From contig OX442314.1 in NCBI GenBank assembly GCA_949358305.1, forward strand, positions 16,926,001-16,990,000: a DNA stretch of 64,000 nucleotides, in the 5' to 3' direction. The stretch's first letter is position 1, and every line of letters starts with the position of its first letter. This DNA is from Strigamia acuminata (taxonomy: Eukaryota). The notes under the pieces are model-generated. The model made no database searches. It was not told where the DNA came from and saw only the letters and a program-made list of their open reading frames with translations. Of the stretch, positions 521 through 44,915 are shown piece after piece. The position numbers and the translations under genes were made by a program.

Positions 521-3030
521 TCATCTTGAACTTTCCATGCCATCCATCGTACATCTGTATACCAATCAATTACTATCTCATCAATATAATGAATGAATAA
601 CAAAACTTGCCTATTTGCAGGAGCAGATGATTTACTCTCTGGTACTTGATCCGCCACTGCTTCCAGGACTCCAACCGCCAAATTATGACAACCCGGGCCC
701 AGTTGTATGTCCTCATCAACATCAGCCTAAAATTAAAAACATAATCGGATTAAATAAATCCTTCGGTAAAAATGTCACCTTGTACCATGCTCAATTTCAA
801 TTTTTGTGGATCGATGCGACTGCTGTTTTTACTGCCAACTGTATTCCAACCGTCCTCACCCATGCTTGATCCGCCACCCATACCTCCAAAACCACAAACA
901 AACCGGCCGTGAGAATAATTTACACGCAGCTAAATAAGATTTTTACTTTTTCGTTTATCTTCAATTCGTTGGTGAGATTGAGGTTGAGTTAAAGACATTT
1001 CTTTTTCCAAAACTTCTCTTTCCGCTTTTACATGAATTTGATCGGAAGTTTTTAGATTACCGTCATCTCTTCTAGGGACCCAATTATTTTGTCGCAAATC
1101 GATGACATCTTGCAACATGAAATAAACTCTCGGCGATGTTTGTCGTTTATTAATAATTTCCTTCATCATGTGAATGTAAGAGTTCATCTTATCACCCTAC
1201 AAAAAATGAACATAAACACCGCCAATTTTTTAAAATTGTAGTTCAATTTTCACTTGCCACTGGTTCTTTATTATTGCTTTTGCTCTTCTCTGGATCAATG
1301 TCCTTTCCGATAATTGTTAACAATATGCACAAACATTCTAATGAATCGTCATCTTCCTGATTGAGCAATTTTTTTAGGCAAATATGCATGATGGTAGCAG
1401 TGAGCATACGCAACTTAAAAAGTTCGCCAATAAATCTACGCGAAATAAAGAAACATTATTTTCTAGAACTATTTTCGACAATCAACACGATAAATTATTC
1501 AACCTGATATTCCCTAGCGATCTCCTTTTCGCTTTTCTTTCCAAATCCTCCAATTCTTCGTCCAATTCACGTTTCTTAGCTTCATCCTATAACAATAACA
1601 TTCGTTTCGTTATTCACATGCTGCCTTAAAAACCCCCTCAATATTCTCACATCAAGAAACATTTTCTTGGCTCTCTTGATTCTCGCAACATCATCGGCAG
1701 TGTCTCTTTCAAATTCCTTCTGGCATTTATTGAGCAGTAATTTACGAAAGTTTACAAAGTCATTATCTTGATTTCCTGTAGGGACTTTTTTCATAGCTAG
1801 ACATTTGCATAAGTAAGCAACACTAAAATTAGGTTCATCTAATGCCTGGAAAAAAATTGACACAAAGTCAACAATAATTCTACTTGGCAAAACAAATACC
1901 TACTTACTTTTTCAAATACTAAGTCAATAACACCCATTAGCCTCTCTTCAGTGTCTATACTTAAATCGTTTACTTTTTTCGATAATGTGTTAAACTTCTG
2001 CGGTGTCAACTCATTGAGAATACCTCCGACTCTTTTATATAAATCCTAAGAATATTCAAAAAAGTTAACACAATACAGTTTCCGAATAAAACGTATTCCT
2101 TACCTCGGTCTTAAGAGCCTCGGTGTCTGTATCCTTGCCAAATTTATGAGTTTGCTTCCATGCATTCTCAGACTTGTTCAATCGCACATCAGGATTGGAA
2201 GATAACAGATCAATCTCCTTCTTTTGCTCAGTTTCAGCAACTTGCTGGCTTAGGCAACGGTTAACTTGAGCCTGATAAAATTTCATTAGCACGAAAATAA
2301 AATAGATAAATAAATAAAAAAGCGGCAAAACACTTACGTTCCTAAGTGCCCTATTAGAAATTATATATTCACATTTGAAATCTGTTACAGGAAGATGAAG
2401 GCTTTTAGACCCAGCTGGACTAACGGGTCGCTCAAACGGTTTTGTTTTATTAGACTTTAAAAACAACATCAAACTTAACTTAAACATAAATGTTAAACTT
2501 AAATATTAAACTGAAAAAAAAACCTCTACCTCTCTTATATAAATCTTACGAACATTCAAAAACATTAGCACAATGCAGTTAACTCATTTCCTTACTTCGG
2601 TTGTAAGTGTGTCGGTATCGGTATCTGTATCTTCGCCAAATTTGTAAGTAGGCTTACATGCATTCTCAGGCTTATTCAATCGCATATCAGGATTGGAAGA
2701 TGGGCATGTTTGAACAATCTTTTTTTTCTTGATTAAGTTGGTGACAAGTTCATCTAGCAATTTCTTGTGGCCTGGTTTGATCTTGAATTTCTCGCAGAAA
2801 TCGTAAAACATTCCATACACTTTGACACTTTTAAGTGGTTCAGCTTGCTTAATAACCTCTGCATTTTCAATTAAAAACACTTCAATTTCATTAACTTCTG
2901 TTAATGAACTTAAACTATGTTCATTATCGTATCCAGTAATTTCTAAGCAAAAACGAACTTCTTCCGGCAGAAGTAATAATGTTTCCTTAAAACCCGAGTT
3001 GTTAACGGCACCTTGATCTTCGTTGTCCAT
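521..3030 (-). CDS. Chimeric eIF4G-derived gene D: novel N-terminal exon + complete MIF4G domain + part of the linker, stopping before MA3 (predicted, multi-exon)
   Basis: ATG at 3030 ([13 protein letters not shown]...). Exon 1 ends TTE|GTAAGG at 2596. Phase-compatible exons follow: [109 protein letters not shown] at 521-523 corresponds to a parental CGA. Could be a young pseudogene. Confidence 0.6.
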
Positions 3031-3893: not shown

Positions 3894-4384
3894 GTTGAAC
3901 CTTGGTGGTAAATCAAGTTGACTTGAGAAAAACACAGAATGACCACTCCGCCTTTGATGTTTACTGAAGTGATTGTTGGGTCAGCGACTGCAGGCAACCA
4001 GCAGCGGCGATGGTGATTCCGTGGCAACAAGCAAGAAACAAGCAGGAAATCACAGAATAACACAGAATGGCCACTTCACCGCCGTGAGCACCAGGAATGC
4101 ATCAGTGTCATCTTGTGGCAATTTATGCCCCAATGCAGACAAACATTGTAAAAAACACTACAATTCAGATTTCGTAAGATTTCAAGATTTGTCGTCAAAA
4201 TATAATTATCTACCCTTCAGACTTTAAACATTTTGCTCAATTTTGCTACAATTTGTGAAATTTTATGGATCTCCAGGATCTCGGAGATTTCATGGATTTC
4301 AAAGCCATTTTGCTTATCAAAATACAAGAAAAAATAAATTTTAATCGACTTAAAAATCAAGTAGCCATCTTAAGAAACAATACG

Positions 4385-4665
4385 AGTGATTAAGTACAAA
4401 AATGAATCGAGTCTGGCGGATTTCAGTACTGCTTTCCTGGACCAGTTTCTGATCACATTCGGATTGGTCAGGTCTGTTTTAGTTTCATAACTTTCGATTA
4501 ATTATTCTTAAAGTTGAGATGGCTGTGATGTGTGCTGATGCATCTGAACCTGCGCCGGTGGTTGTTGATGTTGCAGTTGTTGCGATACCTGTTCCGTGAC
4601 TACGGTTTGACCGATTGTGCTAGCAACTTTGAGTCGCAAATTGAGCAGCTATGTCACTCGCTCTC
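4385..4665 (-). pseudogene. Truncated copy of the eIF4G 'RASDIAAQFATQ..' exon, downstream of the stop codon of chimeric gene A
   Basis: Similar to parent 44700-45000 (GCAAATTGAGCAGCTA, TGATGCATCTGAACCTG). It is internally deleted and breaks off at about 4385. Confidence 0.7.
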
Positions 4666-4761
4666 AGTTGTAAAAAAATTAATACATGAATAATTATAAT
4701 TAAGATAAAATAAACAAAACAAAAGCGCCGCAATGGCATTTTCAATTTTATAGCCCACTAG

Positions 4762-7700
4762 CTACTCCGTCAGATCTCGAGACGGAGTGGGATCTTGAAT
4801 ACGAATTAATATTTTCTCTCGTTTGGGTAATTGGGGCTGTCGAGACGGCGACAATGAAGGCACCTGGTATCGGGGCATCATACTACTGTAAGACACTAAA
4901 AGCCAGACAACGAAATGTAAGTCAGAATCGAATTTTATCAAATGAAGATCACACTTATTGTTACCTGGAGGATTTTCGCCTCCGTAATGCGTAACTGGCG
5001 TATTCGCGGTCGAAACGTTCATAGTTTGAGCTGGAGACTGGACTTGGTGAGGCTGTTGCGAAGGATATTGAATCCTGTACTGTAAAAGCGCAACAAATTC
5101 CTACATTAGTTGTACGACTTTAAAATGAACCGTTCAACTCACTTTAGATGTACCACCACCCGTCAAATACATGTGCTGCATAGTATTAATTTGCTGCAGA
5201 GGATTCATTTTTTGCTGCTGCTGCTGCGGTGGCGGTTTTTGAGTGCCAGCATAAAATGATTGTTGATGCTGAGTAGCAGTCGCCGGTTTTATACCCATAT
5301 TCATTTCTGGGCGTTGATTAACCGAAGAAACCTGTGGCCGAAGTGGTGGTTGACGAGAATAAAATGGCTGCAAGTCCTGCATAATTTTGACAATTATTTC
5401 ACTTCATTGATGCAAAGGTTATAATGTTATATTTTAATTACCGGAGGCAAGTGTGTTCCGAACACCATCGGGGTATTGGACGCACCTGGCATCCCAGGTT
5501 GGCCCTGTTTACCCATATCGTGAGGGTTAGTATTTGCAGACATTTGCTGATGTTGTACTGCCGAGCGCATTTGTTGATTAGGATACATTCTTTGGATACT
5601 GTATTCCTCACCAACGTCTAATCGGAGAAAAAAACGTCAAAAAACCTTCACTTTGTCAATTTATGATAAGATCACTTACTTGTGGGGGTTCCGCGAGGTA
5701 TATTTTGCATTCTGAGAAGGCCATTAAGGAATTTTGAAGGTGTACTTTCGTTAGGTGGCATGTGTGTTTCGAACACCATTGGAATGTTGGATGCACCTGG
5801 CTTCCCAGATTGGCCCTGCTTACCCATTTCGTGGGTGTTAGTATTTGCGGACGTTCGCTGCTGATGTTCTGCTAAACGCGTTTGTTGATTAGGATACATA
5901 TTTTGGAAATCCGCAACCGCTTCGTTTTCCGATTCGTTTTCCGCTTCCTTCAGCCAAACATAAAAAGCACGGACAGAGTTCAAAGCCTCGCCTTTACCCT
6001 CCTGTTCTACAGGATCTTCACTCTTCTCCCATAGTAAGAAAGCATCCTCAGAAATTATCTCTTCGTCATAAAGGAACCCGAAAAATGTGCACAATATTCC
6101 TAAATTAAATAAAAGAAATCAGTTCAAATTCTAACTTCACTTTGATCAATTATATTTCATCACCTTTCGGTTGTTCCAATTGATGCATAAGAGCTTGCAG
6201 GGCGTAAATTGCTTGCATTTCGCACGCTTCTGAATGATCCAAGTATTTTCTTAAAATATTACAACGATTTCTCAATAGAGCTTCATCCACTTGTATCGTT
6301 GAGTCATCTGTAAACATGAAAAACCAAAGAGAAAATTATTTTTATAAAATGTTAATTTATGTGCAAACAGTATGGTCTTACCACTTTTTCCTAATACACT
6401 TTGACATACAGCTATCATTAAAGCACGAACAAATGATGCTTCGTGACATTGGCTTTCACTCAGGTGTGCCTACAGTTAAAAAAGATAAAATCAACAAAAA
6501 TCGACTTTTTTATTTGGTAATGCATTTCTCACGTCTATCCAATCAAAAATCTCTTTATTTTCAGATTGCTTACTAGCAAATAGTGCAGCTAACTCGGTTT
6601 TCAGTTGCCCGGAAGAAAGATTGGTGGTTTTGCAAGGCTCTCGTGGCTTCACCGTAAACTCTAACTTCTAGCAACGACCAACAAGAAAAAATATATCTAT
6701 CTAAAACCAGAACACGACACAATAAACCAATCTTACATTCTCCTTAATGAATTCTTCTGTCTTTAGACTAGCCGGTAAAAACTGAGACCACTGTAAATTA
6801 GACGATCTCCACAATTCACCAACTTCATGTGTTCCCTAATTAAAAAAACAACAAATAAATCGTTTTGTTTGGAAATTTATAAATAAAACGGTATTACCAA
6901 TTTGTTAGAAACAGCATGCAAAACGGCAGACACAAAAGAGCCAGCACAACCTGTTTCGAAACAAGGCTGGGCTGCCTCATGAAGAAATGATAAAGGTAAT
7001 GTGCTATCTTTAATCAAAGGCGCAATTAATTCGCCTAAATATTCCCAAATATGAGGAATATCAATTGCATAATCTTCAGCCAAACTCAGAATTGCTTGAA
7101 GGCTGCAAAAAAAAAAGAAATGATAAGTATTGAAAAGAGAAAAAAATATATATATATGAATTATCTTGCATTAACCTTACCCTTTAATATACTGCTCAGG
7201 AGTCATAACTTTCGCCTTTATTAAATCATGCATCAGTTGGCCAATCTGTTGCCTCGTTTGAGCCGAGCGCTCTAGAACGTAATTGAATGCATAAGTAAAA
7301 AAAAAAGAAATCGTTGTGGGAGCACAAATTTCCGAAATGCACAGAATAGCTTCCTAGAAACACAAAATTTCAAAATCAGACAAGTTCTTAAACTGATAAA
7401 ACAAAATAAATATCCAACTTGAAAATCAGTATTATGTAAAAATTCATCGAGTAGTGCTTTAGCTCTCTTTTCAATTTCTATTTCGGTTAAGTCAGGATTT
7501 CCTCTCAGAGCAACATCTTTCTTCTCTTCTTTGGTAATACTACTCTCTCGACTGCTGTCTATCGGAGCGCGGCCACTTTCCCCGCTAGCAATTGTTTTAA
7601 CCGCTGCAATTGCTTGTTCACGCTCCTTCTCCTTTTGCGACTGCACGACAGCTTTGCCACTGCGCTGAGCAGGCGGTGCCATTTGAGTGCCTCGACCTTT

Positions 7701-10700
7701 ACTTGAGTCTCGAGACGAAGAAGGTGCGTTTCTAAAATTTAAAACAATTATTATTTTCGTAATTAAATTCAAATTCTAATTTTTTTACCGATTAATTCCT
7801 CGTCTTGAATCTTCGACGCGAGCACATGGTTCGTTAACGAGAGCGTGAAATCTGTAAACCAATTAATTACAATCTACAATTTCTTAAATGAATAACAAAA
7901 CTTACCTATTTGCTGGAGCAGATGATTTACTCTCTGGTTCCCAGCTACTTGTCCTTGATCCGCCACTGCTTCCACGACTCCAACCAACAACATAACGACC
8001 ACTGGTGGTTTCACAAGGCTCTCGTGACTTCACTGTAAACTCTAACTTCTGTCAGCATCCCACAAATATACATATATATAAAACAAGAAAATAAGACAAT
8101 AAACCAATTTTACATTCTTCCTAATGAATTCTTCTGTCTTTACACTAGGTAGTAAAAACTGAGCCCATTGTAAATTCCACGATCTCCACAATTCACCGAC
8201 TTCGTGCGTTCCCTTAATTAAAAAACAACAAATTAATCGTTTTGATTTTAAATATATAAATAAAGCGGTATTACCAATTTCTTAGAAACAGCATGCAAAA
8301 CGGCAGACACAAAAGAGCCAGCATAACCTGTTTCGAAACAAGGCTGGGCTGCCTCATGAAGCCACACCAAAGGTAATGTGCTATCTTCAATCAAAGGCGC
8401 AATTAATTCGCCTAAATATTCCCAAATATGAGGACTATCAATTGCATAACCTTCGGCCAAACTCAGAATTGCTTGAAGGCTGCAAGAAAAATTATAAATC
8501 AAGTATTAAAAAGTGGAAAAAATGAAAAATCGGAACTTTTTATCTTGTATTAACCATAGGGTACCCTTTAATATACTGCTCAGGAGTCATGACTTTCGCC
8601 TTTATTAAATCATGCATCAGTTGACCAATCTGTTGCCTCATTTTAGCCGTGCGTCGTAGAACGTAACAGAATGCATAAGTAACAAAAAAAGAAATTGTTG
8701 TGGAAGCAAATGTTTCTGAAACGCACAGAATAGCTTCCTAGAAGCACAAAAATTCAAATTCAGATACGTTTTTGAACCGCTAAAACAAAATAAATATCCT
8801 ACTTGAAAATCCGAAGTATGTAAAAATTCATCGAGTATTGCCCTAGCTTTCTTTTTAAATTCCTTTTTAGTTAAGTCGGGACATAATAGTAAAAGAGGTC
8901 TTTTACTACTATGGTCGGGATTTTCTCTCAGAGCTACGTCATCTTTCTTCTCTTCGCTGGTAGTACTACTCTCTCGACTGTTATCTCCTGCAGGGTGTCT
9001 ACTTTCCGTAACCAGCTGAAATTGCATTTTTTTTTTCCTGCCATGCACAACAGCTTTGCCAAGATGCTGATCAGAGGGTGCCATTTGGATACCTCGATCT
9101 TTACTTGAGTCCCGAGACGGCGAAAGAGAGTTTCTGAAATTTAAAACAATTATTATTTTCGTGAACAAACACAAAATAATTTTTTTTACCGATTAATTCC
9201 TCGTCTTGGTTCGTTATTATTACTTTTGCTTTTCTCTGGATCAATGTTTGTTCCGATAGTTGTTAGCATTGTGGACAAAACTTCGAATGATTCATCATCT
9301 TCGCGTTTGACCAATTTTTTTAGGCAGTCGTACATGATGTTTGCAGTAAGCATGTGCAACTCAAAGAGTTCGCCAATAAATCTACGCGAAATAGAATAGC
9401 ATTTTTTTCTAGAATTATTTTCAACCAATCAACACAATAAATTATTCAACCTTATATTTCCTAGCGACCTCGTTTTCTCTTTTCTTTCCAAATCCTTCAA
9501 TTTCTCATCCGATTCCTCAGACAATTCATCTTTCATAGCTTTATCCTTCAATAAAATTCGTTATTCACATGCTGCCTTAAAAACCCCATAAACATTCTCA
9601 CATCGGTAAACATTTCCTTGTCCGTCCTAATTTTCGTAATATCAGCAGGACTGTCTCCTTCAAATTCCTTCTGGCATTTTTTGAGCAAGAATTCACGAAA
9701 TTTTACAAAGTGATTATCTTGATTTCCTGTAGGGATTTTTTTCATTCTTAGACGTTGGCATAAATTGGTGTAAGCGATACTGAAATTAGGTTCATCTAAT
9801 GCCTGGCAAAAAAAATTAACACAATATCAACAACAATTCTTCTTGGCAAAACAAATAACTGCTTACTTTTTCAAATACTAAGTCAATAACACCCATTAGC
9901 CCTTCTTCAATGATTGACTGGCATTTAACTTGAGCCTGATAAAATTTCACGAAAATCAAATAAACGCATAAATAACAAACTAAAAAAATACTTACATCCC
10001 TAGGTTTGGCACAAGACTTTACATATCCAGGAGTATGAGATCTTTGAAACCCAGCTAGACTAACGGGCTTTGTTTTATTAGACTTTAAAAAACAACATCA
10101 AACAGTTAAAAAAAAAGAAAAAAAAAAAAAAAAAAAAAAACTCTTATATTACCCAATCTGTAACTGAATCCTTTATAACTTCCAGATCTGGTAAACCTTC
10201 TGGTTTTCGTAAGGACAGTGGCTGAAACTGCATTTGCAGCAAAAATGATCGATCATATTGTCGTTTTCCTTCAGGATTTAAAGGACTCCATTGATCTAAA
10301 ACCACAAAGAAATCCAGTTAAACATTCACCCCAATCTCCTAAACATCGTTTACTAACCTTTCTTAGAAATAGTTTGACTTTTGGTAATAGGTTGATCTAT
10401 TACATCAATCACTTGTTCATTCCTCTCAAAATCTTGACTAACTTTAGTATTTTCTTCAATCTTTTCACTCAATTTACGTTCTTCCTCCTTAGAATTTATG
10501 TTATCAGTGAGAGAAACCTCTTGTGCGACCGCAGGACTACCTTCAGGTAAGTTAATCTAATAAAACAAGACATTTGCACACATTCGTCTAATGTCTGGAA
10601 AAAATTTATCACAAAATCAACAATAATTGAGCTGGCAAAACGAATAACTACCGGTACATACTTTTTCAAATACTAAGTCAATATCACCTATTAGTTTTTC

Positions 10701-12016
10701 TTTAGTGTCTATACTATACTCAAATCATTTTACTTGTTTAACTAATTTGTTAAACTACTTCACTGTTAACTTATTGAGAACACCTCTGACCGCGGAGTAC
10801 GACTTTTGTCCGAGTCTCAGACATGAGCATCTGAATCTCTGTCTAAGTCTTTCCGAATTCTACCTACATTTTTCCGAATTCTACCTACATTTTTCCGAAT
10901 TCTACCTACATTTTTCCGAATTCTACCTACATTTTTCCGAATTTTAGCTACATCTTTCCGAATTTTACCTACATCTTTCTGAATTTTTCCGAATTCTGCC
11001 TAAATCTTGCCAAATCTCTATTCAAATCTTTGCAAGTTTCTATCTGAATCTTTCAAAATGCCGCTAGAATCTGTCTGAATCCTGCCTGACTCCATACGAA
11101 TCCTTCCAAATTTGTGAGAATCTTTCAAAACCCAAAACCGAATTGAAAAAAAAGATTCGAATCTCTTGACATGCAGATTCTGATTGTCGTACCCCCCGCC
11201 TCTGATTCTCATATAAATCCTACGAATATTCAAAAAAAATAACAGGATGCAGTATAACAGAGAATAACATCGGGTACCCGTACCCGTACCCGTAACCGTA
11301 CCCGCCCGTACCCGTAGGGTACGGGCGGGTACGGTTATAGATCTCCCGCGACTCCCGGTTACGGGTCGGGTACGGGTACGTTTTTTGTTCGTTTTTTGTA
11401 CGTTTTTTGTCCTGCTGGCCACGTAATCGCGGGTACGGGTAGGGTAGGGTAGGGGGATTCCGGGATAGCCCGGGTACGGGCGGGTACGGGTACGAAATTG
11501 TTTCGGTGACGGGTAACGGGCGGGTAACGGGTAAACTTTTTTCGCCAATGTTATTCTCTGCAGTATAACTATGACTCAATTCCTTACCTCGGTCGTCAGA
11601 GTTTCGGTATCAGTATCTTTGCCAAGTTCGTGAGTAGGCCTCCATACATTGTCAGGCTTATCCAACAGCACATCGAGATTGGAAAATGATGTTTGAATAT
11701 TATTTTTCTTGATTAGATCGGCTATAAGTTCCTCTAACATTTTTTTGTGGCCTGGTTTAAACTTGAATTCTTCACAAAAATTGTAAAATATTCCATAGGC
11801 TTTGATACTTTTACGTGGTTCAACTTGCTTAATAATCTTTGCATGTTCAATTAAAAACACTTCAATTTCATTGACATCTGTTAATGAACTTAAACTATGT
11901 TCATTATCGTATCCAGTAATTTCTAAGCAAAAACGAACTTCTTCCGGCAGAAGTAATAATGTTTCCTTAAAACCCGAGTTGACAACGGCACCTTGATCTT
12001 GGTCTTCGTTGTCCAT
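4762..12016 (-). CDS. Chimeric, circularly permuted eIF4G gene A: novel N-term - eIF4E-binding motif - partial MIF4G - MA3 - MA3 - W2 - eIF4G N-terminal Q-rich region - PABP-binding motif (predicted)
   Basis: ATG at 12016. YDRSFLL at 10237-10257. In-frame fused exons at about 9910, 9205, 8005, 5915 and 5750. W2 reads through in ORF 5672-6094 ([25 protein letters not shown]...). Ends [20 protein letters not shown] at 4762. Requires skipping the MITE-disrupted exon at about 10660-11220. Confidence 0.55.
8875..8920. mobile_element. 32-bp palindromic micro-insertion with 7-bp TSD, in frame inside a coding exon
   Basis: GTCGGGA + CATAATAGTAAAAGA GG TCTTTTACTACTATG + GTCGGGA. Empty site at about 25365-25371. 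Adds 13 codons ([13 protein letters not shown]). Confidence 0.8.
10783..11206. mobile_element. hAT-like MITE with internal 21-bp minisatellite, inserted in a MIF4G exon copy
   Basis: 8-bp TSD CCTCTGAC/CCTCTGAT. Imperfect TIRs CGCGGAGTACGAC / GTCGTACCCCCCG. Internal (TTTTCCGAATTCTACCTACAT)n. Interrupts a DLY..VRG.LNKLT exon that also carries a TAG. Confidence 0.75.
11250..11568. mobile_element. 303-bp hAT-type MITE (GGGTAC-rich, fold-back), intronic
   Basis: Perfect 13-bp TIR CAGAGAATAACAT/ATGTTATTCTCTG (11258-11560). Perfect 8-bp TSD CAGTATAA. Clean empty site in the duplicate at about 27898-27905. Confidence 0.92.
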
Positions 12017-12360
12017 GACAAAAATCTAGATGGAGATGCTGTGGTAAACTTTCAACACGCACTCCTGGTCGTGTAGTCAGCCCCGTGTGGTGTCATATGA
12101 GCACAGATTAAGGGAATTCCCCTTATCCGTGCTCGTGACCACGCAACACAATGCCAGGAACGTTTCAGCGCCATCGTGTGGCAACGTTTGTCCCAACACG
12201 GAAAAACATTGTGATTACACTGCGCATCGAGAGGGAAAATCTGAAACAAATTCGAAAAAGACTTAAAAATTGGAAATCTAGATGTATTCTGAGATTTTAG
12301 ATTTAGTATGAGTTTAAAGATTTGCTTTCAAATTTTAACTATTTGCTTTCAGACATTAAA

Positions 12361-12651
12361 ATGAGCGTCCAACCCGCGGCCCCCAGGCCGCATGCGGCTT
12401 AGAATCGCTAGGGATGCGGCATTTAATTTTTTTTTATATTCTAGTGTTTGTTTTCTTTAGACAACAAACAGCATTGAAATTAGGATTATTATACGAGGAT
12501 TCTTTGCTTACCTGTGGTGGTGTATATCAAGAAAATTATGTATGGACTTTTTTTTTTGCTCATCAGCTATCGTCGGTGTATTTTATGTGTGGCCCAAACA
12601 ATTCCTCTTCTTCCAATGTTGCCTGGGAAGCCAAGATGTTGGACATCACTG
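12361..12651. mobile_element. hAT-Charlie MITE resembling MER30 (copy 1 of 4)
   Basis: Ends GTCCAACCCGCGGCCC..GGCCGCATGCGGC and GCTCATCAGCTATCGT..GTGTATTTTATGTGTGGCCCAA..TGGGAAGCCAA.A..TTGGACA.C.CTG. Empty sites at about 4220 and 13773. Family assignment is from recalled consensus. Confidence 0.7.
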
Positions 12652-12791
12652 CTTTAAAACTTTTGCTCAATTTTGCTCCAATTTGTAAGATTTTGTGGAT
12701 TTCCAGGATTTCATGAGCTTTGATTAATTTCAAAACTAGCTACTCTAGCTACATGTATTATATTTTAGTTTAATTCACCTTGGCCGCCACA

Positions 12792-12960
12792 TACAGTGGG
12801 GGGGCAAAACTAAATTAAGAAATGTGACATGTTGAATCTCATGGCTCTATCTCGGGGAAAAAAAGGAGAAAAACCAATAATGAAATTTTAACTGAATACT
12901 TGTCTAACATTCTGCTTTGTTCTCCTAAATTTTTTTTTTAAATCTATCCGTTAGTTCTGA
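12792..12960. mobile_element. Possible one-ended Tc1-like remnant (TA-CAGTGGGGGGGCAAAACT); also at about 19742, 29116 and 36065
   Basis: TA followed by a CAGT(G)nCAAAA terminus typical of Tc1-family TIRs. No matching second TIR found. Confidence 0.35.
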
Positions 12961-13039
12961 AGAAAAAAATTATTTCGTGAAGTGACATCAAAAATTAAGA
13001 GGCAAAAGTAAGTTAACAACTCTGTTAACCATCGAGAAA

Positions 13040-13262
13040 CATAACTATTCTCACCCCGAGAAACATTTCCTTGGTTTTTTTTTATTCTCGCAACAACATC
13101 TGCAGTCTCTCTTTCAAATTCCTTCTGGCATTTATTGAGCAGTAATTTATGAAATATCACGAAAGTTATTATCTTGATTTCTCATATATACTTTTTTCTT
13201 AGCTAAACATTTGCATAATTTGGCATAAGCAACACTGAAATTAAGTTTATGTAATGCCTACC
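13040..13262 (-). pseudogene. Orphan frameshifted MIF4G exon (AL.KLNFSVAYAKLCKCL...); copies at about 19990-20202, 29365-29585 and 36315-36525
   Basis: A +1 insertion after DNNF gives a premature TAA. There are no flanking eIF4G exons. Confidence 0.8.
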
Positions 13263-14815
13263 AAGACATTAACAGAACATCAATAATAATTCTACTTGGC
13301 AAAACAAATTAAAAATTTGCCCATCTGTGAATGTGTGAGGGATTTCGTTTTTGTGCCTGCTTATAGTGTAGTCTCGCAAGTAAACGGCGATTAAAAAGTC
13401 CTTCATTTTGACTCAATCAACGAATGAGGTCCACTTATTTAGTTATTTGAACACTATTATATATTTTCGGCTTGGCTCACCTTTTAGGAAGTGGAGGCTT
13501 TGCCTGAAAGCATTGGGATGACTGGAAGAGACCCCTCGATCTATTTTTCGTCTCAGCCTTTTTGAATTTCCTTATAAAAACTCAAACTGGCAGAAACCAC
13601 TTTAAAAAAAAAAACCACACCAGCCGTAGTTTTTGTTTCTGAAGTTTTTTGTGATCGTTTTCAGCTGTTTTTGATGCCTATTCTGTTACTTACAGAAACT
13701 TTCAATGCACACCTATTGAGATAAAGTAAGCTTTCTTAGATTTTCCTTCAAATTTTAATTATCTACCGTCAGACTCTAAAATTTTGCGCAATTTTGCTGC
13801 AGTTTTCATGAATTTATATGATTTTGGGTATTACATGAGATTTCATGGGTTTCATGATTTACAAAATCCAAATTCTTGACTCCTAAGATATCCACCATTG
13901 GCTATCCTCTCAGCTTTGATTCGTGTTTTATACTTAAAATTAATCGTGCTTTCAAATAAGGCTAGTGTCTGTTAAATTTGCATAATGCAAAATTACCGTA
14001 AACTTTTTTTTTTCCAGTTTTTATTTTATTGGTTATTGAACAACAAAGGTTTTGTCATACAATGTGCATTTACCCAATATTAAACCTAAAGCCAGACGCC
14101 CCACAAACTCAGCGATGCATTATATTATGTAATTCCCCATTATCTCAATTAATATAATAATAATATATGTAAATGAAAGAATAATTTTCTAGGAAAAAAG
14201 ATTTGAGGAGCTATAATGGATAAATTTATTTCATTTGGCTGATCACCTCAAATTTCCCTATTCCTGTGTTAGATTTCACCTCGCTATTGTACTTCTGCAA
14301 TCGAAATCTTGAGAAACAAATAGAACTCATGGTTAATACTTGGTTATAATATAATTTACACAAACGTAAATATAACTGGCTACTCTAGCTGCAATATACA
14401 AAACAATTGGCAATGCTTTTTTTTTTGTTGTATTCATGACAATATACAACTCGAGACTCCATTACAACATGCCTTTTTTATCAGTCACAATTTTGTTAAA
14501 GCAGTCCAAAGGCCAATTTAAGCCATTTTTCTTACCAAAAAAACAAGAAAAAATAAATTTTAATCGACTTAAAAATCATGCAGCCATCATAAGAAACAAT
14601 AATTAAAAAACAAAAACTGTAGTGAAAAAAAAAAAGAAAAAAAAAACACTTTCGGAAGAAAAAAAATAATACATATACGATTGTACCCTAAAATCCCCCC
14701 CTCCCCCTCGTTAGTGCGGCAGCAACGACGATGGGGTGGAGCAGCCAGTCGATGTTCGGAGCATAGGCCAGTAGATTTGATGGGTTGTGATTACTTTCTA
14801 AGGGGAAGCCATGAC

Positions 14816-15968
14816 TCAGCTTTGATCCAAAGTTTTTGGATTATTTTCGTCTCTTCTGGGAACCCAATTGTTCTGTCGCAAATCTGTGACATCTTGCAAC
14901 ATGAAACGAACTCTCGGCGATGCCTGTCGCTTATTAATGATTTCCTTCATCATTCGAAAGTAAGAGTTCATCTTATCATCCTACATAAAATAAATACCGC
15001 AATTAGAACACAACTTTTTTTAAACTGTAATTTAATTTCCACTTGCCACTGGTTCTTTATTATTGCTTTGGCTCTTCTCTGGATCAATGTCTTTTCCGAT
15101 AGTTGTTAACAATATGCAAAAACATTCTAATGAATGGTCATCTTCCTGATTGAGCAATTTTTTTAGACAATCATGTATGATGCTGGCAGTGAGCATGTGC
15201 AACTTAAAAAGTTCGCCAATAAATCTACGCGAAATAAAAGAAACATTATTTTCGACGATCAACACGATAAATTATTCAACAACCTTATATTCCCTAGCGA
15301 TCTCCTTTTCGCTTTTCTTTCCAAATCCTCCAATTCTTCGTCCAATTCACGTTTCTTAGCTTCATCCTATAACAATAACATTCGTTTCGTTATTCACATT
15401 AAAAACCCCCTAAATATTCTCACATCAGGAAACATTTCCTTGGCCCTCTTGATTCTCGCAACATCATCCGCAGTGTCTCTTTCAAATTCCTTCTGGCATT
15501 TATTGAGCAGTAATTTACGAAAGTACCGGTATACAAAGTGATTATCTTGATTTCCTGTAGGGACTTTTTTCATAGCTAGACACTTGCATAAGTCAGCAAC
15601 ACTGAAATTAGGTTCATCTAATGCCTGGCAAATAATTAACACAAAATAAACAATAATTCTACTTGGCCAACAAATAATTGCTTACTTTTTCAAACACTAA
15701 GTTAGTAACACCCATTAGCCTTTCTTCAGTGTCTATACTTAAATCGTTTACTTGTTTCGATAATGTGTTAAACTTCTCCTGTGTCAACTCATTGAGAATA
15801 TCTCCGACTCTTTTATATAAATCCTAAGAATATTCAAAAAAGTTAACACAATACAGTTTCCGAATAAAACGTATTCCTTACCTCGGTCTTAAGAGCCTCG
15901 GTGTCTGTATCCTTGCCAAATTTATGAGTACGCCTCCAAGCACCTTGATCTTGGTCTTCGTTGTCCAT
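14816..15968 (-). CDS. Stand-alone MIF4G minigene C1 (6 predicted exons)
   Basis: [10 protein letters not shown] fused in frame to [19 protein letters not shown]|, then [35 protein letters not shown] and [23 protein letters not shown]. The last codons and the 3'UTR come from the parental end (AGC TGA GTCATGGCTTCCCC). Confidence 0.65.
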
Positions 15969-16046
15969 GACAGAAATCTAGATGGAGATGCTGTGGTAAA
16001 CTTTCAACCCGCACTCCTGGTCGTGTAGTCAGCCCAGTGTGGTGTC

Positions 16047-16086
16047 ATATGAGCATAGATATAGATTACTATATCTATGATATGAG
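16047..16086. mobile_element. 26-bp palindromic micro-insertion with 7-bp TSD (duplicate at 32371-32410)
   Basis: ATATGAG + CATAGATATAG ATTA CTATATCTATG + ATATGAG. Empty sites at about 12095 and 28432. Confidence 0.8.
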
Positions 16087-16433
16087 CACAGATTAAGGGA
16101 ATTCTCCTCTTCTGTGCTCGTGACCACGCAACACAATGCCAGGAACGTTTCAGCGCCATCGTGTGGCAACGTCAAGATGTAGATGCTGTGGTAAACTTTC
16201 AACGAGCACTCCGGGTAGCAGTTGTTGTGGTTTTATTTAGTTTGATTATTTTAGATCTTTGAAATGATTTAAAATGACTAATATTTAATAATAAAATGTT
16301 TTTAAAAGTCTGGAAGCAATGTTTTAAGCTGTTACTTTTTCAAAATTCATGATTCGTCAGTTCGCTCAGTTTATCGGTTGTTATGTCAAGCTTGTTTTGA
16401 AATTTATGATCGATTATTCTGTTTGGACACAAA

Positions 16434-18516
16434 ATGGCTTCCCGCAACTCGAGTGTTTGCTCTCCGGATATTTCCAAAGTTTCTTCCCGCGACTCCAGTG
16501 TTTGCAGTCCATCTCCTGATCTTCTTGACTTTCTTCCAACTCCGGCACACAGTAGGCGCACACGTCGAGGTGGTGTCCACCTCCCGAAAATCCCCGTGGC
16601 TGAATTTAAGAAATTCGAGAAAGGTCGCCCCATTAATAGACAGGCAAAGCAGATTGTATTGAATTTATTTAATCAATTTTTTCATAAGCAACCTGAAGTT
16701 GGTTGTAAAGAGTTGATTAAACTTCTGTCAAATGTAACCGGTTTGGGAATTCAAAGCATACAGAAAATAAGAAGAGAGATGAATGATAAAGGTGAGTAAA
16801 AACATTGAAGTTTAAAAATAAAAATTAACACTTTCTTTTGGTTTAGGACAATTGAAAACACCAGGGAAGAAGAGGTGCGGTGATTTTCGGAAGCGTATGA
16901 ACAAATATGATTCGTTCACACAATCCGCTATTCGTGCGAAAGTGCACGAATTTTTCCGTAGAGGTGAGGTGCCCACACTGAAAAAGGTTGTAGCCAAAAT
17001 TCAGAATGATGAGACACTTCCGAGTTTAAGCAAAGAAGCATTACGTTTATTTCTACACGACATCGGTTTCAAGTTTATGAAACATAAAAGCAATGCAGCT
17101 TTAATTGAACGCGAAGACATAGTCGCTTGGAGAAGGAAGTATTTGCGTCAGATTAGCGGTTATCGCCGAGAAGGAAGAAAAATTTATTACATGGACGAAA
17201 CATCGGTTAATGCAGGTTATTAACTGAAATTATAATTTAATTTGAAATTTGAAATTAACTAAATGCTAATTCTTATTGTAGGTGAAAATGTAAGCAAATC
17301 ACACACAAATGGTTTTCTGAGTACTGGACTGAAACATCCCACACCCAAAGGAGGTAGGCATATTGTTGCTTACATTGGAAGTGACACAGGTTTCATCAAG
17401 AATGGTTTACTTCTTTTCAAGTAATTTAAATTACATTAATCTGGAAGTATTGTGTATTTAATTATTGTAATTACTTTTAGAGCTACCGGTAAGAAATCTG
17501 ATGATACCTACCACTCAAAGATGATCTCGGTAAACTTTATGAAGTGGATGGAAACTATTTTTCCAAACTTGGAAAAAGGCAGTGTGATAGTGATGGATAA
17601 TGCATCCTATCACACTGAAGAATTGGATCCAACACCCACAACTGAATGGCTTAAAGCCGATATCCAAAAATGGTGCATTGACCATAATGCACATTTTGAG
17701 GATAATTATGTAAAGGCTGAGTTACTGGAGGTATTCTATTTTAAAATATAACAATAATTTAATATATCATCAATACTTATTTATTATACTAGGTTGTAGC
17801 TACAATAAAAAACAATTTTGTCAGCTATGTCTTTGATTCCAGAGCCCAGGATTTAGGGTTCAAAGTTTTGCGCTTGCCTCCACACCACTCTTGCCTAAAT
17901 CCAATTGAAATGGTTTGGAGACAGGTCAATAATTGAATAAACTTGCTGCATCTAAACACAAAAGAAATTGTATTATAAAAAAAATAAAATTACAGGTTAA
18001 GCACCATGTTCGCTTTAACAACACCACATTTAAATTGCCACAAGTCAAACAACTGATGCGACAAGGGACTGTAGTAGTGACGTCCCAGCAATGGGAAAGT
18101 TATTTTTCGCATGTAAAAAGGAAGGTTTGTAAATTAATAATTCATATTCGTTCTTATCTTGTCTCATATACAACATTCTATTGAAGGAACAACAAATGTG
18201 GGATCAGGAAGAATTAATCAATGATGTAATGGAGCAATTCATCATTAACGCCGGGGATGATTCATCAAGTGATGAAGATTTATCAAGTGGTGAAGATTTC
18301 TCAGACAGCCAAGATAATGATGAAGACGCTACAACAACTGCAACAAACACAACTTGTCTCAATCCTTTCCTTCTGCAACGAATAAAAACCGAAGATTTAT
18401 CAAGTGATGAAGATTTCCCAGACAACCACGATAATGATGAAGATACTACAACAATTGCAACAAACACAACTTATGTCAATTCTTTCCTTCTGCAACAAAT
18501 AAAAACCGAATTTTGA
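16434..18516 (+). CDS. Intron-containing IS630-Tc1-mariner transposase, DD82E (Sailor-type), about 568 aa, copy 1
   Basis: Exons 16434-16791, 16847-17215, 17282-17420, 17481-17730, 17793-17924, 17996-18124 and 18187-18516 join with GT-AG in frame. Catalytic motifs YMDET, VMDNASYH and LPPHHSCLNPIE, with 82 residues between the second D and the E. Confidence 0.88.
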
Positions 18517-19359
18517 AATAACAAATAAATTTGGTATTACATCGATAATCTATGACAGACAGACCGGACTTCATGTCTTAAATTCATCACTTGAGTCAGT
18601 AATCTTTCGTCTCATTCGCGGACTTCGGGCGACAAATCTCCCGTTTCTGATTAAATAAAATTAATTTTTTTTTTTACTTTTGCTGACAATTTTCGTCTGA
18701 GCGCCCGTTGTTTTCTTCGATGGCTTTGTTGCCCACATCGTTAACACTTAAAATTCAAACAGAAATAAAACTGTACATCGATTGCAGTAACCTCAAATAT
18801 ATGAAAATAAATGCAAACAAAATGAATCGGTAAATTGATTATTACAATGACTTAATTAATTCCATAATTATGGTTCAGTGATTATTTTATAAAAAAGCCT
18901 GTACTCAGATCATCCTCTAATTCGAGAACAAATGTGCATCGGCCAGTATAAAAAGCTCTTCCTTCTACTTCAACAATTACTGCCGGATATTTTCCACACT
19001 TGGTTAGGTTGTGACGATTCTACTTTTGGCTGAATAATTAGCCATTACAAGAGATAAATCGGTTTAAACAAGACATTTCTACAACTAGAAATAACCTAAC
19101 CGAGATAAGCTACGGAAGTCTGTACAACGTGAATATGTGATCAAATATAATAACTTACGATTTTCGTGTGATATAATTACATGTTTATTAACATTACAAC
19201 TGGGTTGTGGTTCTGGATAAGCATCGAGAGGGAAAATCTGGATCAAATTCGAAAGACTTACTATACAAATTGGAAATCTAGATGTATCCTAAGATTTTAG
19301 ATTTAGTAAGAGTTTAAAGATTTTCCTTCAAATTTTAATTATCTGCCTTCAGACTTAAA

Positions 19360-19603
19360 ACGGGTGTCCAACCCGCGACCCCCAGGCCGCATGCGGCTTT
19401 TAATTTTTTTTAAATATATTCTAGTGTTTGTTTTCTTTAGACAGCAAACAGCATTGAAATTAGGATTATTATACGAGTATTCTTTGCTTACCTGTGGTGG
19501 TGTATATCACGAAAATTTTGTATGGACTTTTTTTTTTTGCTCATCAGCTATCGTCAGTGTATTTTATGTGTGGCCCGGGAAGCCAAGATATTGGACATCC
19601 CTG
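19360..19603. mobile_element. MER30-like hAT MITE, copy 2 (internally shorter)
   Basis: GGGTGTCCAACCCGCGACC... ...TTGGACATCCCTG, in the same flanks as copy 1. Confidence 0.7.
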
Positions 19604-21872
19604 CTTTAAAACTTTTGCTCAATTTTGCTCCAATTTGTAAGATTTTGTGGATTTCCAGGATTTCATGAGCTTTCATTAATTTCAAACTAGCTACTCTAGC
19701 TATTATATTTTAGTTTAATTCACCTTGGCCGCCGCGAGATATACAGTGGGGGGCAAAACTAAGTTAACAAATGTGACATGTTGAATCTCATGGCTGTATC
19801 TCGGAAAAAAAGGAAAAAAAACCAATAAAATTTAAACTGAATACTTGTCTAACATTCTGCTTTGTTCTACTAAAATTTTTATGAAAATCTATCCATTAAT
19901 TCTGGAGATAAAAATTATTTTGTGAAGTGACATCAAAAATTAAGAGGCAAAAGTAAGTTAACAACTCTGTTAACCATTGAGAAACCTAACTATTCTCACC
20001 TCTGGAAACATTTCCTTGACTTTCTTTATTCTTGTAACATCATCCGCAGCGTCTCTTTCAAATTCCTTGTGGCATTTATTGAGCAGTAATTTATGAAATA
20101 TCACGAAGTTATTATCTTGATTTCTCATATATACTTTTTTCTTAGCTAAACATTTGCGTAATTTGGCATAAGCAACACTAAAATTAAGTTCATGTAATGC
20201 CTACCAAGAAATTAACAGAACATCAATAATAATTCTATTTGGCAAAACAAATTAAACATTTTACCAGCTGTGAAGTGTGAATGTGTGAGGGATTTCGTTT
20301 TTGTCCCTGCTTATAGTGTAGTCTCGTAAGTAAACGGTGATTAAAGAGTCATTTTGACTCATTCAACGAATGAGGTCCACTTATTTAGTTATTTGAACAC
20401 AATTATATATTTTTGGTTTGGCTCACCTTTTAGGAAGTGGAGGCTTTGCCTGAAAACATTGTGATGACTGGAAAAGACCCACCTCGATCTATTTTTCGTC
20501 TCAGCCTTTTCGAATTTTCTTCTGAAAACTCAAACTGGCAGAAGCCACTTAAAAAAAAACCACACCAGCCGCAGATTTTGTTTCTGAAGATTTTTGTGAT
20601 CGTTTTCAGCTGTTTTTGATGCCTATTCTGTTACTTACAGAAACTTTCAATGCACACCTATTGAGATTAAGTAAGCTTTCTTGGATTTTCCTTCAAATTT
20701 TAATTATCTATCGTCAGACTCTAAAAATTTACGCAATTTTGCTGCAGTTTTCATAAATTTAGATGATTTTGGGTATTTTATGAGATTTCATGGGTTTCAT
20801 GATTTACAAAATCAAAATTGTTGACTCCTGGGATATCCACCATTGGCTATCCTCTCAGCTTAAGCTGACACATGCAACAAGAAAAAACTTACGCGAATAA
20901 ATCGTCACCGCTTTGATTCGTGTTTTATGCTTAAAATTAATCGTGCTGTCAAATAAGGCTAGTGTCTGTTAAATTTGCATAATGCAAGATTACCGTAAAC
21001 TTTTTTTTCAGTTTTTATTTTATTGGTTATTGAACAACAAAGGTTTTGTCATACATGTGTATTTACACCATATTAAACCTAAAGCCAGACGCCCCACAAA
21101 CTCAGCGATGCAGGACTATTGACCTGGCATGCATTATATTATGTAATTCCCCATTATCTCAATTAATATAATAATAATATATGTAAATGAAAGAATAATT
21201 TTCTAGGAAAAAAGATTTGAGGAGCTATAATGGATAAATTTATTTCATTTGGCTGATCACCTCAAATTTCCCTATTCCTGTGTTAGATTTCACCTCGCTA
21301 TTGTACTTCTGCAATCGAAATCTTGAGAAACAAATAGAACTCATGGTTAATACTTGGTTATAATATAATTTACACAAACATAAATATAACTGGCTACTCT
21401 AGCTGCAATATACAAAACAATTGGCAATACTATTATTTTTTTTTGTATTCACGACAATATACAACTCGAGACTCCATTATAACATGCCTTTTTTATCAGT
21501 CACAATTTTGTTAAAGCAGTCCAAAAGCCAATTTAAGCCATTTTGCTTATCAAAAAAACAAGAAAAAATAAATTTCAATCGACTTAAAAATCATGCAGCC
21601 ATCATAAGAAACAATAATTAAAAGACAAAAACTGTAGTGAAAAAAAAAAAGAAAAATAAAACAATTTCGGAAGAAAAAAAATAATATATATACGAGGTTA
21701 GACCATCCAATGTGATTGGCTGGTCGATCCATTTGATTGCACCCTAAAATCCCCTCCCTCCCCCTCGTTAGTGCGGCAGCAACGAAGATGGGGTGGAGCA
21801 GCCAGTCGATGTTCGGAGCATAAGCCAGTAGATTTGATGGGTTGTGATTACTTTCTAAGGGGAAGCCATGAC

Positions 21873-27800: not shown

Positions 27801-28353
27801 AGATTCGAATCTCTTGACATGCAGATTCTGATTGTCGTACCCCCCGCCTCTGATTCTCATATAAATCCTACGAATATTCAAAAAAAATAACAGGATGCAG
27901 TATAACTATGACTCAATTCCTTACCTCGGTCGTCAGAGTTTCGGTATCAGTATCTTTGCCAAGTTCGTGAGTAGGCCTCCATACATTGTCAGGCTTATCC
28001 AACAGCACATCGAGATTGGAAAATGACGTTTGAATATATTTTTTCTTGATTAGATCGGCTATAAGTTCCTCTAACATTTTTTTGTGGCCTGGTTTAAACT
28101 TGAATTCTTCACAGAAATTGTAAAATATTCCATAGGCTTTGATACTTTTACGTGGTTCAACTTGCTTAATAATCTTTGCATGTTCAATTAAAAACACTTC
28201 AATTTCATTGACATCTGTTAATGAACTTAAACTATGTTCATTATCGTATCCAGTAATTTCTAAGCAAAAACGAACTTCTTCCGGCAGAAGTAATAATGTT
28301 TCCTTAAAACCCGAGTTGACAACGGCACCTTGATCTTGGTCTTCGTTGTCCAT
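21873..28353 (-). CDS. Chimeric, circularly permuted eIF4G gene B: novel N-term - 4E-binding motif - partial MIF4G - MA3 - W2 - N-terminal region/PABP motif - complete second MIF4G (predicted)
   Basis: ATG at 28353. YDRSFLL at 26685-26705. W2 read-through in ORF 23617-23979 ([27 protein letters not shown]). [18 protein letters not shown] motif. The phase-0 donor DNSDS|GT joins the phase-0 DLYKRF exon at 22881. Ends KTLDQS* at 21873. Requires skipping the MITE-disrupted exon at about 27110-27868. Confidence 0.55.
27231..27854. mobile_element. hAT-like MITE (duplicate of 10783-11206) with expanded 21-bp minisatellite
   Basis: Same TSD and TIRs. About 14 near-perfect repeat units here versus about 4 in the other copy. 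Confidence 0.75.
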
Positions 28354-44100: not shown

Positions 44101-44878
44101 TTTTGGCAGTCATATCGTGATAAAACTTACACTTTGTACTCTCCACTACAAAAATGTACGCCAACGATTTAATTATTTATTTCTCCATGACCTTAGAACT
44201 AAAAAGCCGAAATAATTCAAACTATTGGCTTCGTGCCACCGAAATTGATTGTTCGGATGAACAAAGTAGGGCAGAAATTAAATTCCTAAAATACCCAGAA
44301 CTTTTTTCTGTTAAATAAATAAAATGTTGTTCAATACTCACACTCGGTTTCCCATTTTTCTGCGTGTGGGTCAACCATGTCATTAGCACCGACATCACCG
44401 TTCTCCTGCGGACTCATCTCGTCATCTGCACTGGCGTCTGCAGATTCCGCTGCGTTTACAGTACTCTCGTGCTGAACAATCACGGGTGTCTGCTCGATGT
44501 GTTCGGGAACTGCGACTTCAACCTCGACTGGAAGTGGCGCAAAATCCGCTTCTCTCTCCCTCGGGACAACGACTGGCGCGTCTACCGGGTGCTCAGTGCT
44601 AGGAATTGCATTTACTTCGATTGGGTCCATAAACGTAGGCATGTTGAATGGAGGAGCGGCTACGTTTCTGGGCACTACATTCACCGATTGAGTCTCGCGG
44701 ATTTCGGTTTCAGTACTGCTTTTCTCGGTCAGTTTCACCTGAGCACTAATCACATTGGGATTGCTTACGTCTGTTTTAGTTTCATGACTTTCGGTTGACT
44801 TTTCAACAATCACAGCACTCCTAGTTGAGATGGCTGCTATATGTTGATGCATCTGAACCTGTGCCGGTGGTTGATGAT

Positions 44879-44915
<37 letters not shown>

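What the first reader, a model, noticed from the sequence alone, without database searches (positions are those of the whole stretch)
5672..6094. Circular permutation of eIF4G: W2 C-terminus reads in frame into the N-terminal region (gene A)
Seen: the parent ends [13 protein letters not shown]. Here the stop is lost and the frame continues [14 protein letters not shown].. into N-terminal exons. It then splices through the Q-rich exons and ends right after the PABP-binding motif (TAG at 4762 replaces parental GAA). Inference: the PABP site has moved from the N- to the C-terminus, changing closed-loop geometry. This fits the duplication-then-trimming route to permutation.
Basis: partly seen in the sequence, partly recalled or inferred. 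Interest (0 to 1): 0.88.

Follow-up and report, generated by a model that had tools for sequence, protein, structure and literature searches.

The report
Domain-shuffled eIF4G copies in a centipede
Next to an intact gene for the translation scaffold eIF4G, a centipede-like genome carries rearranged copies that put the protein's front end behind its tail, with reading frames still open and the new joint seen in spliced RNA; the copy flagged here has lost part of its working core and would more likely act as a decoy than as a scaffold.

Summary
The junction is real. Gene A (minus strand, 10556-4762) reads from W2 through a duplicated W2 tail into N-terminal exons and stops at 4764-4762. It belongs to a tandem array beside an intact 28-exon eIF4G (92% identical to Strigamia maritima eIF4G): two permuted copies (A, B) and three MIF4G-only copies.

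With parental splice sites, A (1411 codons) and B (1238) are open. All 17 exon-level indels and fusions keep frame (intron indels: 2 of 22, 5 of 20). A has no internal stop where 11-14 are expected, yet amino acids drift almost freely. One RNA run holds the junction spliced, in B's exon layout; no A-specific joint was listed.

A is not a clean circular permutation: its MIF4G lacks about 70 of 203 profile positions, MA3 is doubled, and the stop clips the PABP peptide. B is the better permutant, with a whole PABP motif followed by a whole MIF4G.

The weak point is the 5' end: the exon after the shared start exon is broken, so an exon skip must be assumed. Best reading: expressed chimeric paralogs, A a likely decoy; decay is the main rival.

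The parts
5672..6099 (-). Gene A fusion exon (6099-5680): end of W2 (E27), duplicated W2 tail, diverged exon-2 copy, exonised intron-0 end, E1
   Evidence: DNA contig X3 record 19
4762..5617 (-). Gene A E2-E5 copies (Q/P-rich region, PABP motif) ending in TAG 4764-4762; old intron-5 donor lost, so E5 is likely the last exon
6164..8002 (-). Gene A second MA3 and W2 (E18 part to E26), 96% amino-acid identity to the parent over 495 codons including E27
8003..9133 (-). Gene A first MA3 (E20-E24 part), 77% amino-acid identity to the parent; 42-nt in-frame insertion; fused in frame to E18
9190..9935 (-). Gene A truncated MIF4G: last 15 codons of E12, E13-E15; E16 absent; fused to the end of E19
9996..10556 (-). 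Gene A E8-E10 with the eIF4E-binding motif YDRSFLL; first in-frame Met lies two residues after the motif
   Evidence: Pfam PF21140 32.3 bits over cut-off 27
10662..11219 (-). Broken E12 copy with a repeat-bearing insertion and 11 stops; must be skipped for A to be whole
11588..12016 (-). Start exon X1 (143 codons): about 110 residues foreign to eIF4G fused to the 3' half of E11; its ATG and leader are shared by A, B, C, D
4406..4761 (-). Decayed E5 tail and E6 copy behind A's stop (frameshifting indels), internal control for release from constraint
21872..28353 (-). Gene B: X1, broken E12 copy, E8-E10, truncated MIF4G, MA3, W2, same W2/exon-2 junction (about 23810), E3-E5 with whole PABP motif, whole MIF4G (E12-E16), stop and parental 3' UTR
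611..3030 (-). Gene C: X1, E10-E18 (whole MIF4G), open for 592 codons as far as modelled
14815..15968 (-). Gene D1: short X1 plus whole MIF4G, 283 codons
31139..32292 (-). Gene D2: same protein as D1
38196..46612 (-). Intact parental eIF4G, 28 exons (E0 at 46612-46542)
11559..21878 (.). 10.3-kb segment 99.4% identical to 27896-38201 (parental 3' UTR, D, transposon, X1): the most recent duplication unit

Best explanation
Gene A is one of two domain-permuted eIF4G copies in a tandem array, open in frame under the parental splice sites, likely made by tandem duplication plus in-frame deletions, likely translated, and predicted to act as a decoy rather than a scaffold. Shown: the junctions, the open frames from E8 on, the lost parts, and a spliced RNA of the A/B kind. 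Inferred origin: a deletion joined the W2 end of one copy to exon 2 of the next; later unequal exchanges with the parent gave A a second MA3 and a second E1-E2, and gave B a whole MIF4G at its end; a foreign start exon (X1) supplies promoter and ATG. Inferred selection: on keeping the frame, with little constraint on most residues. Predicted action of A: it would hold eIF4E (YDRSFLL, if X1 splices to E8), eIF4A through tandem MA3 domains as PDCD4 does, and perhaps PABP weakly, but without a whole MIF4G or most of the eIF3-binding linker it would not activate eIF4A or recruit the 43S complex, so it would damp cap-dependent translation where expressed. Confidence by step: origin 0.9, frame kept by selection 0.8, A translated today 0.5, decoy action 0.4.
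For: Open frames of 1411 and 1238 codons using only parental splice positions. 17 of 17 distinct exon-level indels or fusions keep frame (12 on A's line), against 2 of 22 and 5 of 20 intron indels being multiples of 3 (Fisher p 1.7e-7 and 2.9e-5). 174 of 189 amino-acid differences in A arose on the copy's line (S. maritima as outgroup), which predicts 11-14 stops; none internal, one terminal (P of at most one: 1e-5 to 3e-4). Controls in the same array decay: 4 of 5 orphan or post-stop fragments tested carry frameshifts or stops, not counting A's own terminal stop. RNA run X4: contig of depth 23.1 covers 5757-5930, carries 30 letters of the W2 end and splices to E3; another joins E15/E19 to E20 and E21. 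MIF4G loss: E12 is Pfam positions 2-44 and E16 164-203; A keeps 15 codons of E12 and none of E16. The human eIF3-binding linker 1011-1104 (PMC12709193, passage) maps by the alignment to about parent residues 963-1050, of which A keeps about 15 and B none. An eIF4G fragment with eIF4E and PABP sites but no MIF4G is a dominant repressor in human cells (bioRxiv 10.64898/2026.04.06.716749, abstract and passages); PDCD4 sequesters eIF4A with two MA3 domains (PMC12709193, passage).
Against: The 5' end is unproven: the nearest acceptor after X1 leads into a broken exon with a stop at codon 52 in A and 60 in B, and 44 (A) and 58 (B) YAG triplets lie between the X1 donor and the E8 acceptor. Without the skip, the first Met lies behind the eIF4E motif. 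Amino-acid constraint on A's line is weak to absent (dN/dS 0.7-2.1 by assumption; B 0.5-1.5), as in a pseudogene. The RNA contigs have B's exon layout and match neither A nor B exactly (14 and 6 differences from A where B has 17 and 17). The PABP peptide in A is clipped and mutated, and the cited repressor needs both eIF4E and PABP. A and B share 8 of the 17 events, and the event list was compiled by hand; E20 counts as one net event though it holds compensating frameshifts.
Confidence: 0.45

Rival explanations
1. A and B are transcribed but dying or dead copies: the frame was kept while an ancestral chimera was in use, and the insertion into the E12 copy has since cut them off from their start exon.
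For: Default splicing gives an early stop. dN/dS near or above 1 on A's line. A's PABP peptide is cut by a nonsense change and the sequence behind it has decayed. The array is turning over fast (10.3-kb unit at 99.4%).
Against: The insertion is shared by A and B, so it is older than their split, yet 9 of 9 events specific to A or B also keep frame and neither has an internal stop. In gene C the matching acceptor has been lost by mutation, which makes X1 splice past it. B has an in-frame GTAAGG donor inside the insertion (129-nt exon).
Confidence: 0.3
2. The permuted proteins are working initiation scaffolds with a new domain order. This fits B better than A: eIF4E site first, then MA3 and W2, then PABP motif directly before a whole MIF4G.
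For: B's C-terminal MIF4G is 93% identical to the parent with pairwise dN/dS 0.26; its PABP motif is whole; the spliced RNA junction has B's layout. PABP binding and its position may matter little, since it is dispensable for bulk initiation in human cells (bioRxiv 10.64898/2026.04.06.716749, abstract).
Against: A has no whole MIF4G in its frame. B lacks the segment that binds eIF3 in mammals and the Trp motif is far from its MIF4G; the first MIF4G helix carries changes ([14 protein letters not shown] to [14 protein letters not shown]). B's MIF4G differs from D's at 1 of 458 nt, so its constraint may have been earned in D.
Confidence: 0.2
3. The junction is a mis-assembly, or mirrors a circular RNA of the parent.
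For: Arrays of near-identical repeats are hard to assemble; the 10.3-kb pair is 99.4% identical.
Against: The junction lies off any parental splice site, occurs in two copies that differ at 15 of 174 nt, is covered by a single-copy DNA contig in run X3, and A-specific sequence at 8782-9128 and 4330-4958 is matched without difference in X1 and X2.
Confidence: 0.03

Closest known systems
Canonical metazoan eIF4G1/eIF4G3 (parent here; S. maritima T1J0U7)
   Same: All eIF4G-derived parts of A and B come from this gene; eIF4E motif, MA3 and W2 kept.
   Different: Domain order changed, PABP motif behind W2, MIF4G truncated (A) or moved to the end (B), foreign start exon.
Permutation-by-duplication intermediates of DNA methyltransferases
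   Same: Tandem duplication, loss of the first stop, trimming of both ends (PMC5944983, one passage). B still shows the redundant overlap (E12-E15 twice).
   Different: Here whole folded domains and disordered motifs are reordered in a spliced animal gene, with internal deletions; no single fold is permuted and not all parts are kept.
PDCD4
   Same: Two MA3 domains in tandem (A); eIF4G MA3 matches PDCD4 chains by sequence.
   Different: A's MA3 pair arose from eIF4G itself, is separated by a linker of about 130 residues and comes with an eIF4E motif and W2; eIF4A binding untested.
Enteroviral 2A N-terminal cleavage fragment of eIF4G
   Same: eIF4E and PABP sites without a working MIF4G, a dominant repressor (bioRxiv 10.64898/2026.04.06.716749).
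   Different: Gene-encoded rather than cut; sites at opposite ends of a 1400-1550-residue chain; PABP peptide clipped.
eIF4G2/DAP5/NAT1 and MIF4G-only proteins such as PAIP1
   Same: eIF4G relatives that lack some binding sites (PMC12709193, PMC9177959, passages); genes C and D are of this build.
   Different: Those are ancient and keep the domain order; A keeps the eIF4E motif and loses MIF4G, the reverse of DAP5.

Membership tests
eIF4G (canonical scaffold), gene A | eIF4E-binding motif Y(X)4L-hydrophobic | tested here: met
   YDRSFLL; PF21140 32.3 bits, cut-off 27. Its translation depends on the inferred X1-E8 splice.
eIF4G (canonical scaffold), gene A | Whole MIF4G/HEAT-1 domain | tested here: not met
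   Pfam positions about 2-29 and 164-203 of 203 absent
eIF4G (canonical scaffold), gene A | MA3 followed by W2 | tested here: met
   E20-E27 at 96% identity to the parent; W2 by Pfam; extra MA3 upstream
eIF4G (canonical scaffold), gene A | PABP-binding peptide | tested here: inconclusive
   Core motif present with one K-to-I change; peptide ends at residue 23 of 28 of 1LJ2_C; binding not tested
eIF4G (canonical scaffold), gene A | Binds eIF4A and eIF3 and recruits 43S | not testable with these tools
   needs biochemistry
Circular permutant of eIF4G | Old C-terminus joined in frame to old N-terminal part | tested here: met
   A and B
Circular permutant of eIF4G | All parts kept once, in rotated order | tested here: not met
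   A: E0, E6, E7, E16, E17 absent, MA3 and E2 doubled. B: E0, E1, E6, E7, E17, E18 absent, E12-E15 doubled, but every folded domain and both motifs present
Circular permutant of eIF4G | Junction transcribed and spliced | tested here: inconclusive
   Met for a B-layout transcript in 1 RNA run; no A-specific joint listed
PDCD4-like tandem-MA3 repressor | Two MA3 domains | tested here: met
PDCD4-like tandem-MA3 repressor | Descent from PDCD4 | tested here: not met
   Both MA3 copies derive from the neighbouring eIF4G, 77% and 96% identical
Pseudogene | Disabling stops or frameshifts in the coding exons | tested here: inconclusive
   None from E8 on; the E12 copy upstream is broken

The most novel reading that the evidence does not exclude
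This centipede lineage has built, from its one eIF4G gene and a captured start exon, a live family of domain-shuffled initiation factors: B a naturally permuted scaffold with the PABP motif and MIF4G moved behind W2, A a gene-encoded dead-end repressor with tandem MA3, C and D free MIF4G domains, all evolving fast at the amino-acid level as in germline control or an arms race with viral proteases.
Probability: 0.25. Interest if true: 0.85.

Novelty: new variant of a known kind. Interest (0 to 1): 0.6.

Why it matters
The domain order of animal eIF4G (PABP site, eIF4E site, MIF4G, MA3, W2) is treated as fixed. Natural copies with the order rotated, kept in frame and at least partly transcribed, give ready-made tests of whether order and closed-loop geometry matter, and show permutation-by-duplication caught midway in a spliced animal gene. 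If A is a repressor it would be a gene-encoded counterpart of viral eIF4G cleavage. If the copies are decaying, it remains a clean case of exon shuffling but of local interest only. No report of it turned up in searches (eIF4G + circular permutation, 7 papers, none on this by title or abstract; eIF4G + Strigamia, 0); the library lacks most subscription journals.

Tried and rejected
No whole genome is held, so other copies and the donor of X1 could not be sought. No run is on record as RNA; X4 was recognised as RNA by 8 listed joints that equal predicted GT-AG introns. In X4 no contig was listed over A's own features (8003 fusion, 5712-5756, 4544-5275); contigs drop rare forms and the tables were cut, so this is no evidence of silence. 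Contig depths were used only to reconstruct which bases a contig covers, not to rank expression. Pairwise dN/dS against the parent (A 0.55, B 0.41) looked like purifying selection but was set aside: the parent's line alone can halve it; the polarised count replaced it. Protein searches found no annotated protein with the junction: 3 hits of 129 candidates, all of normal order, no candidate; weak evidence. X1: no Pfam family at cut-off, Atlas hits 0.92 or less to unnamed clusters, 0 of 368 longer candidates, 8 distant unnamed relatives without Pfam family. No paper in the library gave the residue-level role of the clipped PABP helix or named the eIF4A-contact helices of MIF4G; that these are the first and last repeats is recalled. 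No fold or complex was predicted, as the spliced proteins are not single stretches of the window. Earlier scan findings: none. circRNA and mis-assembly were rejected as above.

Full report
Setting. The window holds, on the minus strand, an EMC1-like gene, eIF5A (both by Pfam), a cold-shock-domain gene (read from sequence, recalled likeness to YBX1) and an intact eIF4G at 46612-38196. Exons E1-E27 join into 1535 codons with canonical splice sites; a further first exon E0 was found by homology. The protein is identical at 1394 of 1515 aligned residues to Strigamia maritima eIF4G, P0002, so the source is likely a Strigamia centipede (taxonomy). Downstream, 38 kb consist of rearranged copies of this gene.

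The observation. The parent's end, the lost stop, the read-through and the TAG at 4764-4762 are as described. The linker after W2 is a tandem copy of the W2 tail (17 of 18 nt in A, 15 of 18 in B); exon-2 homology begins near 5907. A then has a second junction into the end of intron 0, followed by E1 and E2 at 100% and 99% identity, and E3-E5 at 94, 94 and 87%. Public DNA contigs support the assembly: X3 covers 5719-5958 with one difference and 7964-8284 with none; X1 and X2 match A-specific stretches without difference. X1-X3 come from two studies and may include the source of the window.

The array. Using only parental splice positions, gene A is open for 1411 codons from E8 and gene B for 1238. 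A reads: eIF4E motif, truncated MIF4G, MA3, MA3, W2, Q/P-rich region, clipped PABP peptide. B reads: eIF4E motif, truncated MIF4G, MA3, W2, Q/P-rich region, whole PABP motif, whole MIF4G, stop. C (592 codons as modelled) and D1/D2 (283) carry MIF4G alone. All five begin with the same ATG and leader, exon X1, whose first 110 or so residues are foreign to eIF4G. X1 has 8 distant unnamed relatives among 1.84 billion representatives, none with a Pfam family; one of 1010 residues looks to me like a DNA-transposon protein (recalled, untested). Identity to the parent is a patchwork (A: 72-77% in the 5' half and at the junction, 96-99% in E18-E27 and E1-E2), which points to an old chimera repeatedly patched by exchange with the parent.

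Is the frame kept by selection? I listed 17 distinct indels or fusions in exons (8 shared, 4 in A, 5 in B); all keep frame, counting E20 once by its net change although it holds compensating shifts. In orthologous introns 2 of 22 (A) and 5 of 20 (B) indels are multiples of three. With S. maritima as outgroup, 174 of 189 amino-acid differences in A and 144 of 161 in B arose on the copy's line; neutral change would add 11-14 and 8-12 stops. A has only its terminal stop and B none internal. Of five orphan or post-stop fragments at similar divergence, four are broken. Against this, amino-acid constraint is weak: dN/dS on A's line is 0.7-2.1 depending on assumptions, B's 0.5-1.5. The pairwise values of 0.55 and 0.41 include the parent's line and are not evidence. 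The pattern is a kept frame with drifting residues: relaxed or diversifying selection on a translated product, or a recent death.

RNA. Run X4 (61,566 contigs, 9 laid) is a transcriptome by its joints, 8 of which equal predicted introns. One contig of depth 23.1 covers 5757-5930, continues into 30 letters of the W2 end and splices to an in-frame acceptor 45 nt inside E3. The coverage and the assignment of the loose end to this contig are my inference from the depth table (167 of 167 bases). Another contig joins the E15/E19 fusion to E20 and E21 without A's 42-nt insertion. Both have B's exon layout, but are closer to A in sequence than B is (14 and 6 differences where B has 17 and 17), so they come from a third allele or paralog of the A/B kind. 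Short contigs cannot show that the pieces lie on one molecule. This is one run from one study.

The weak point. After X1 the nearest acceptor leads into an E12 copy that carries an insertion with 21-nt repeats and stops at codon 52 (A) or 60 (B). A whole protein needs X1 to splice about 1 kb on to E8, which is phase-compatible; B also has an in-frame donor inside the insertion. Otherwise the first Met follows the eIF4E motif. In C the matching acceptor is mutated away. The insertion predates the A/B split, and all 9 later events still keep frame, which argues for continued translation.

How it would work. A lacks Pfam MIF4G positions about 2-29 and 164-203; that the first and last repeats carry the eIF4A contacts is recalled, and section 12 of PMC9177959 (read) describes three sites without naming helices. 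The linker that binds eIF3 in mammals (PMC12709193, passage) maps to about parent residues 963-1050 (alignment), nearly all missing from A and all from B. A keeps YDRSFLL, two MA3 domains and W2. Its PABP region keeps the core motif named in bioRxiv 10.64898/2026.04.06.716749 (passages) with one change, but ends at residue 23 of the 28-residue 1LJ2 peptide; even the KRERK mutant keeps some binding (PMC4174440, passages), so the effect is open. The same preprint reports that a fragment with eIF4E and PABP sites and no MIF4G is a dominant repressor, and that PABP binding is dispensable for bulk initiation (abstract). Hence A would most likely bind factors without delivering ribosomes. B has every folded domain and both motifs in rotated order and is the candidate for a working permutant. 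None of this binding was tested.

Comparison and novelty. The route matches permutation-by-duplication (PMC5944983, one passage). A fails the strict tests for a canonical eIF4G and for a complete circular permutant; it works, if at all, like PDCD4 or the 2A fragment without being either. Searches (listings and abstract starts only) showed no permuted eIF4G; PMC4335499 (passages) added nothing; supplements were not read. Verdict: real, new as a variant, function unproven; interest 0.6.

Noticed in passing
window 21872-28353 (-): Gene B is the more complete permutant: whole PABP motif joined by an intron5/intron11 fusion (phase 0 to 0) to a whole MIF4G; worth its own follow-up.
   Followed up: partly
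window 611-3030, 14815-15968, 31139-32292 (-): Three open MIF4G-only genes (C, D1, D2) starting at the shared X1 ATG; D and B's last exons use a GC donor after E15.
   Followed up: partly
window 11588-12016, 27925-28353, 2596-3030 (-): Foreign start exon X1, open in all three long copies, dN/dS 0.46 between A and C (p 0.017); 8 distant unnamed relatives, possibly transposon-linked.
   Followed up: partly
window 48500-52400 (-): eIF5A, a cold-shock-domain (YBX1-like, recalled) gene and eIF4G lie in a row on one strand: three translation genes side by side.
   Followed up: no
window 16300-19200 and 32600-35500 (+): Intron-bearing Tc1/IS630-like transposase remnant (weak DDE_3 hit, E 0.002, below cut-off) inside the duplicated 10.3-kb unit.
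   Followed up: no
window 11230-11560: High-copy miniature element (contig depth over 20 times the flanks) inserted in A's first intron, absent from B.
   Followed up: no
window 10805-11205 and 27253-27853: Insertion in the E12 copy with a short target-like repeat and a 21-nt tandem array of 6.5 (A) and 16.8 (B) copies.
   Followed up: partly
window 5331 and 45673 (-): In-frame alternative acceptor 45 nt inside E3, used by the junction transcript in X4 while the parent-type contig uses the first acceptor.
   Followed up: partly
window 40192 (-): Parent intron 18 has a GC donor; gene A has GT at the same place.
   Followed up: no
window 58716-60540: Two long open frames (261 and 250 codons) upstream of the EMC1-like gene, not identified.
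   Followed up: no
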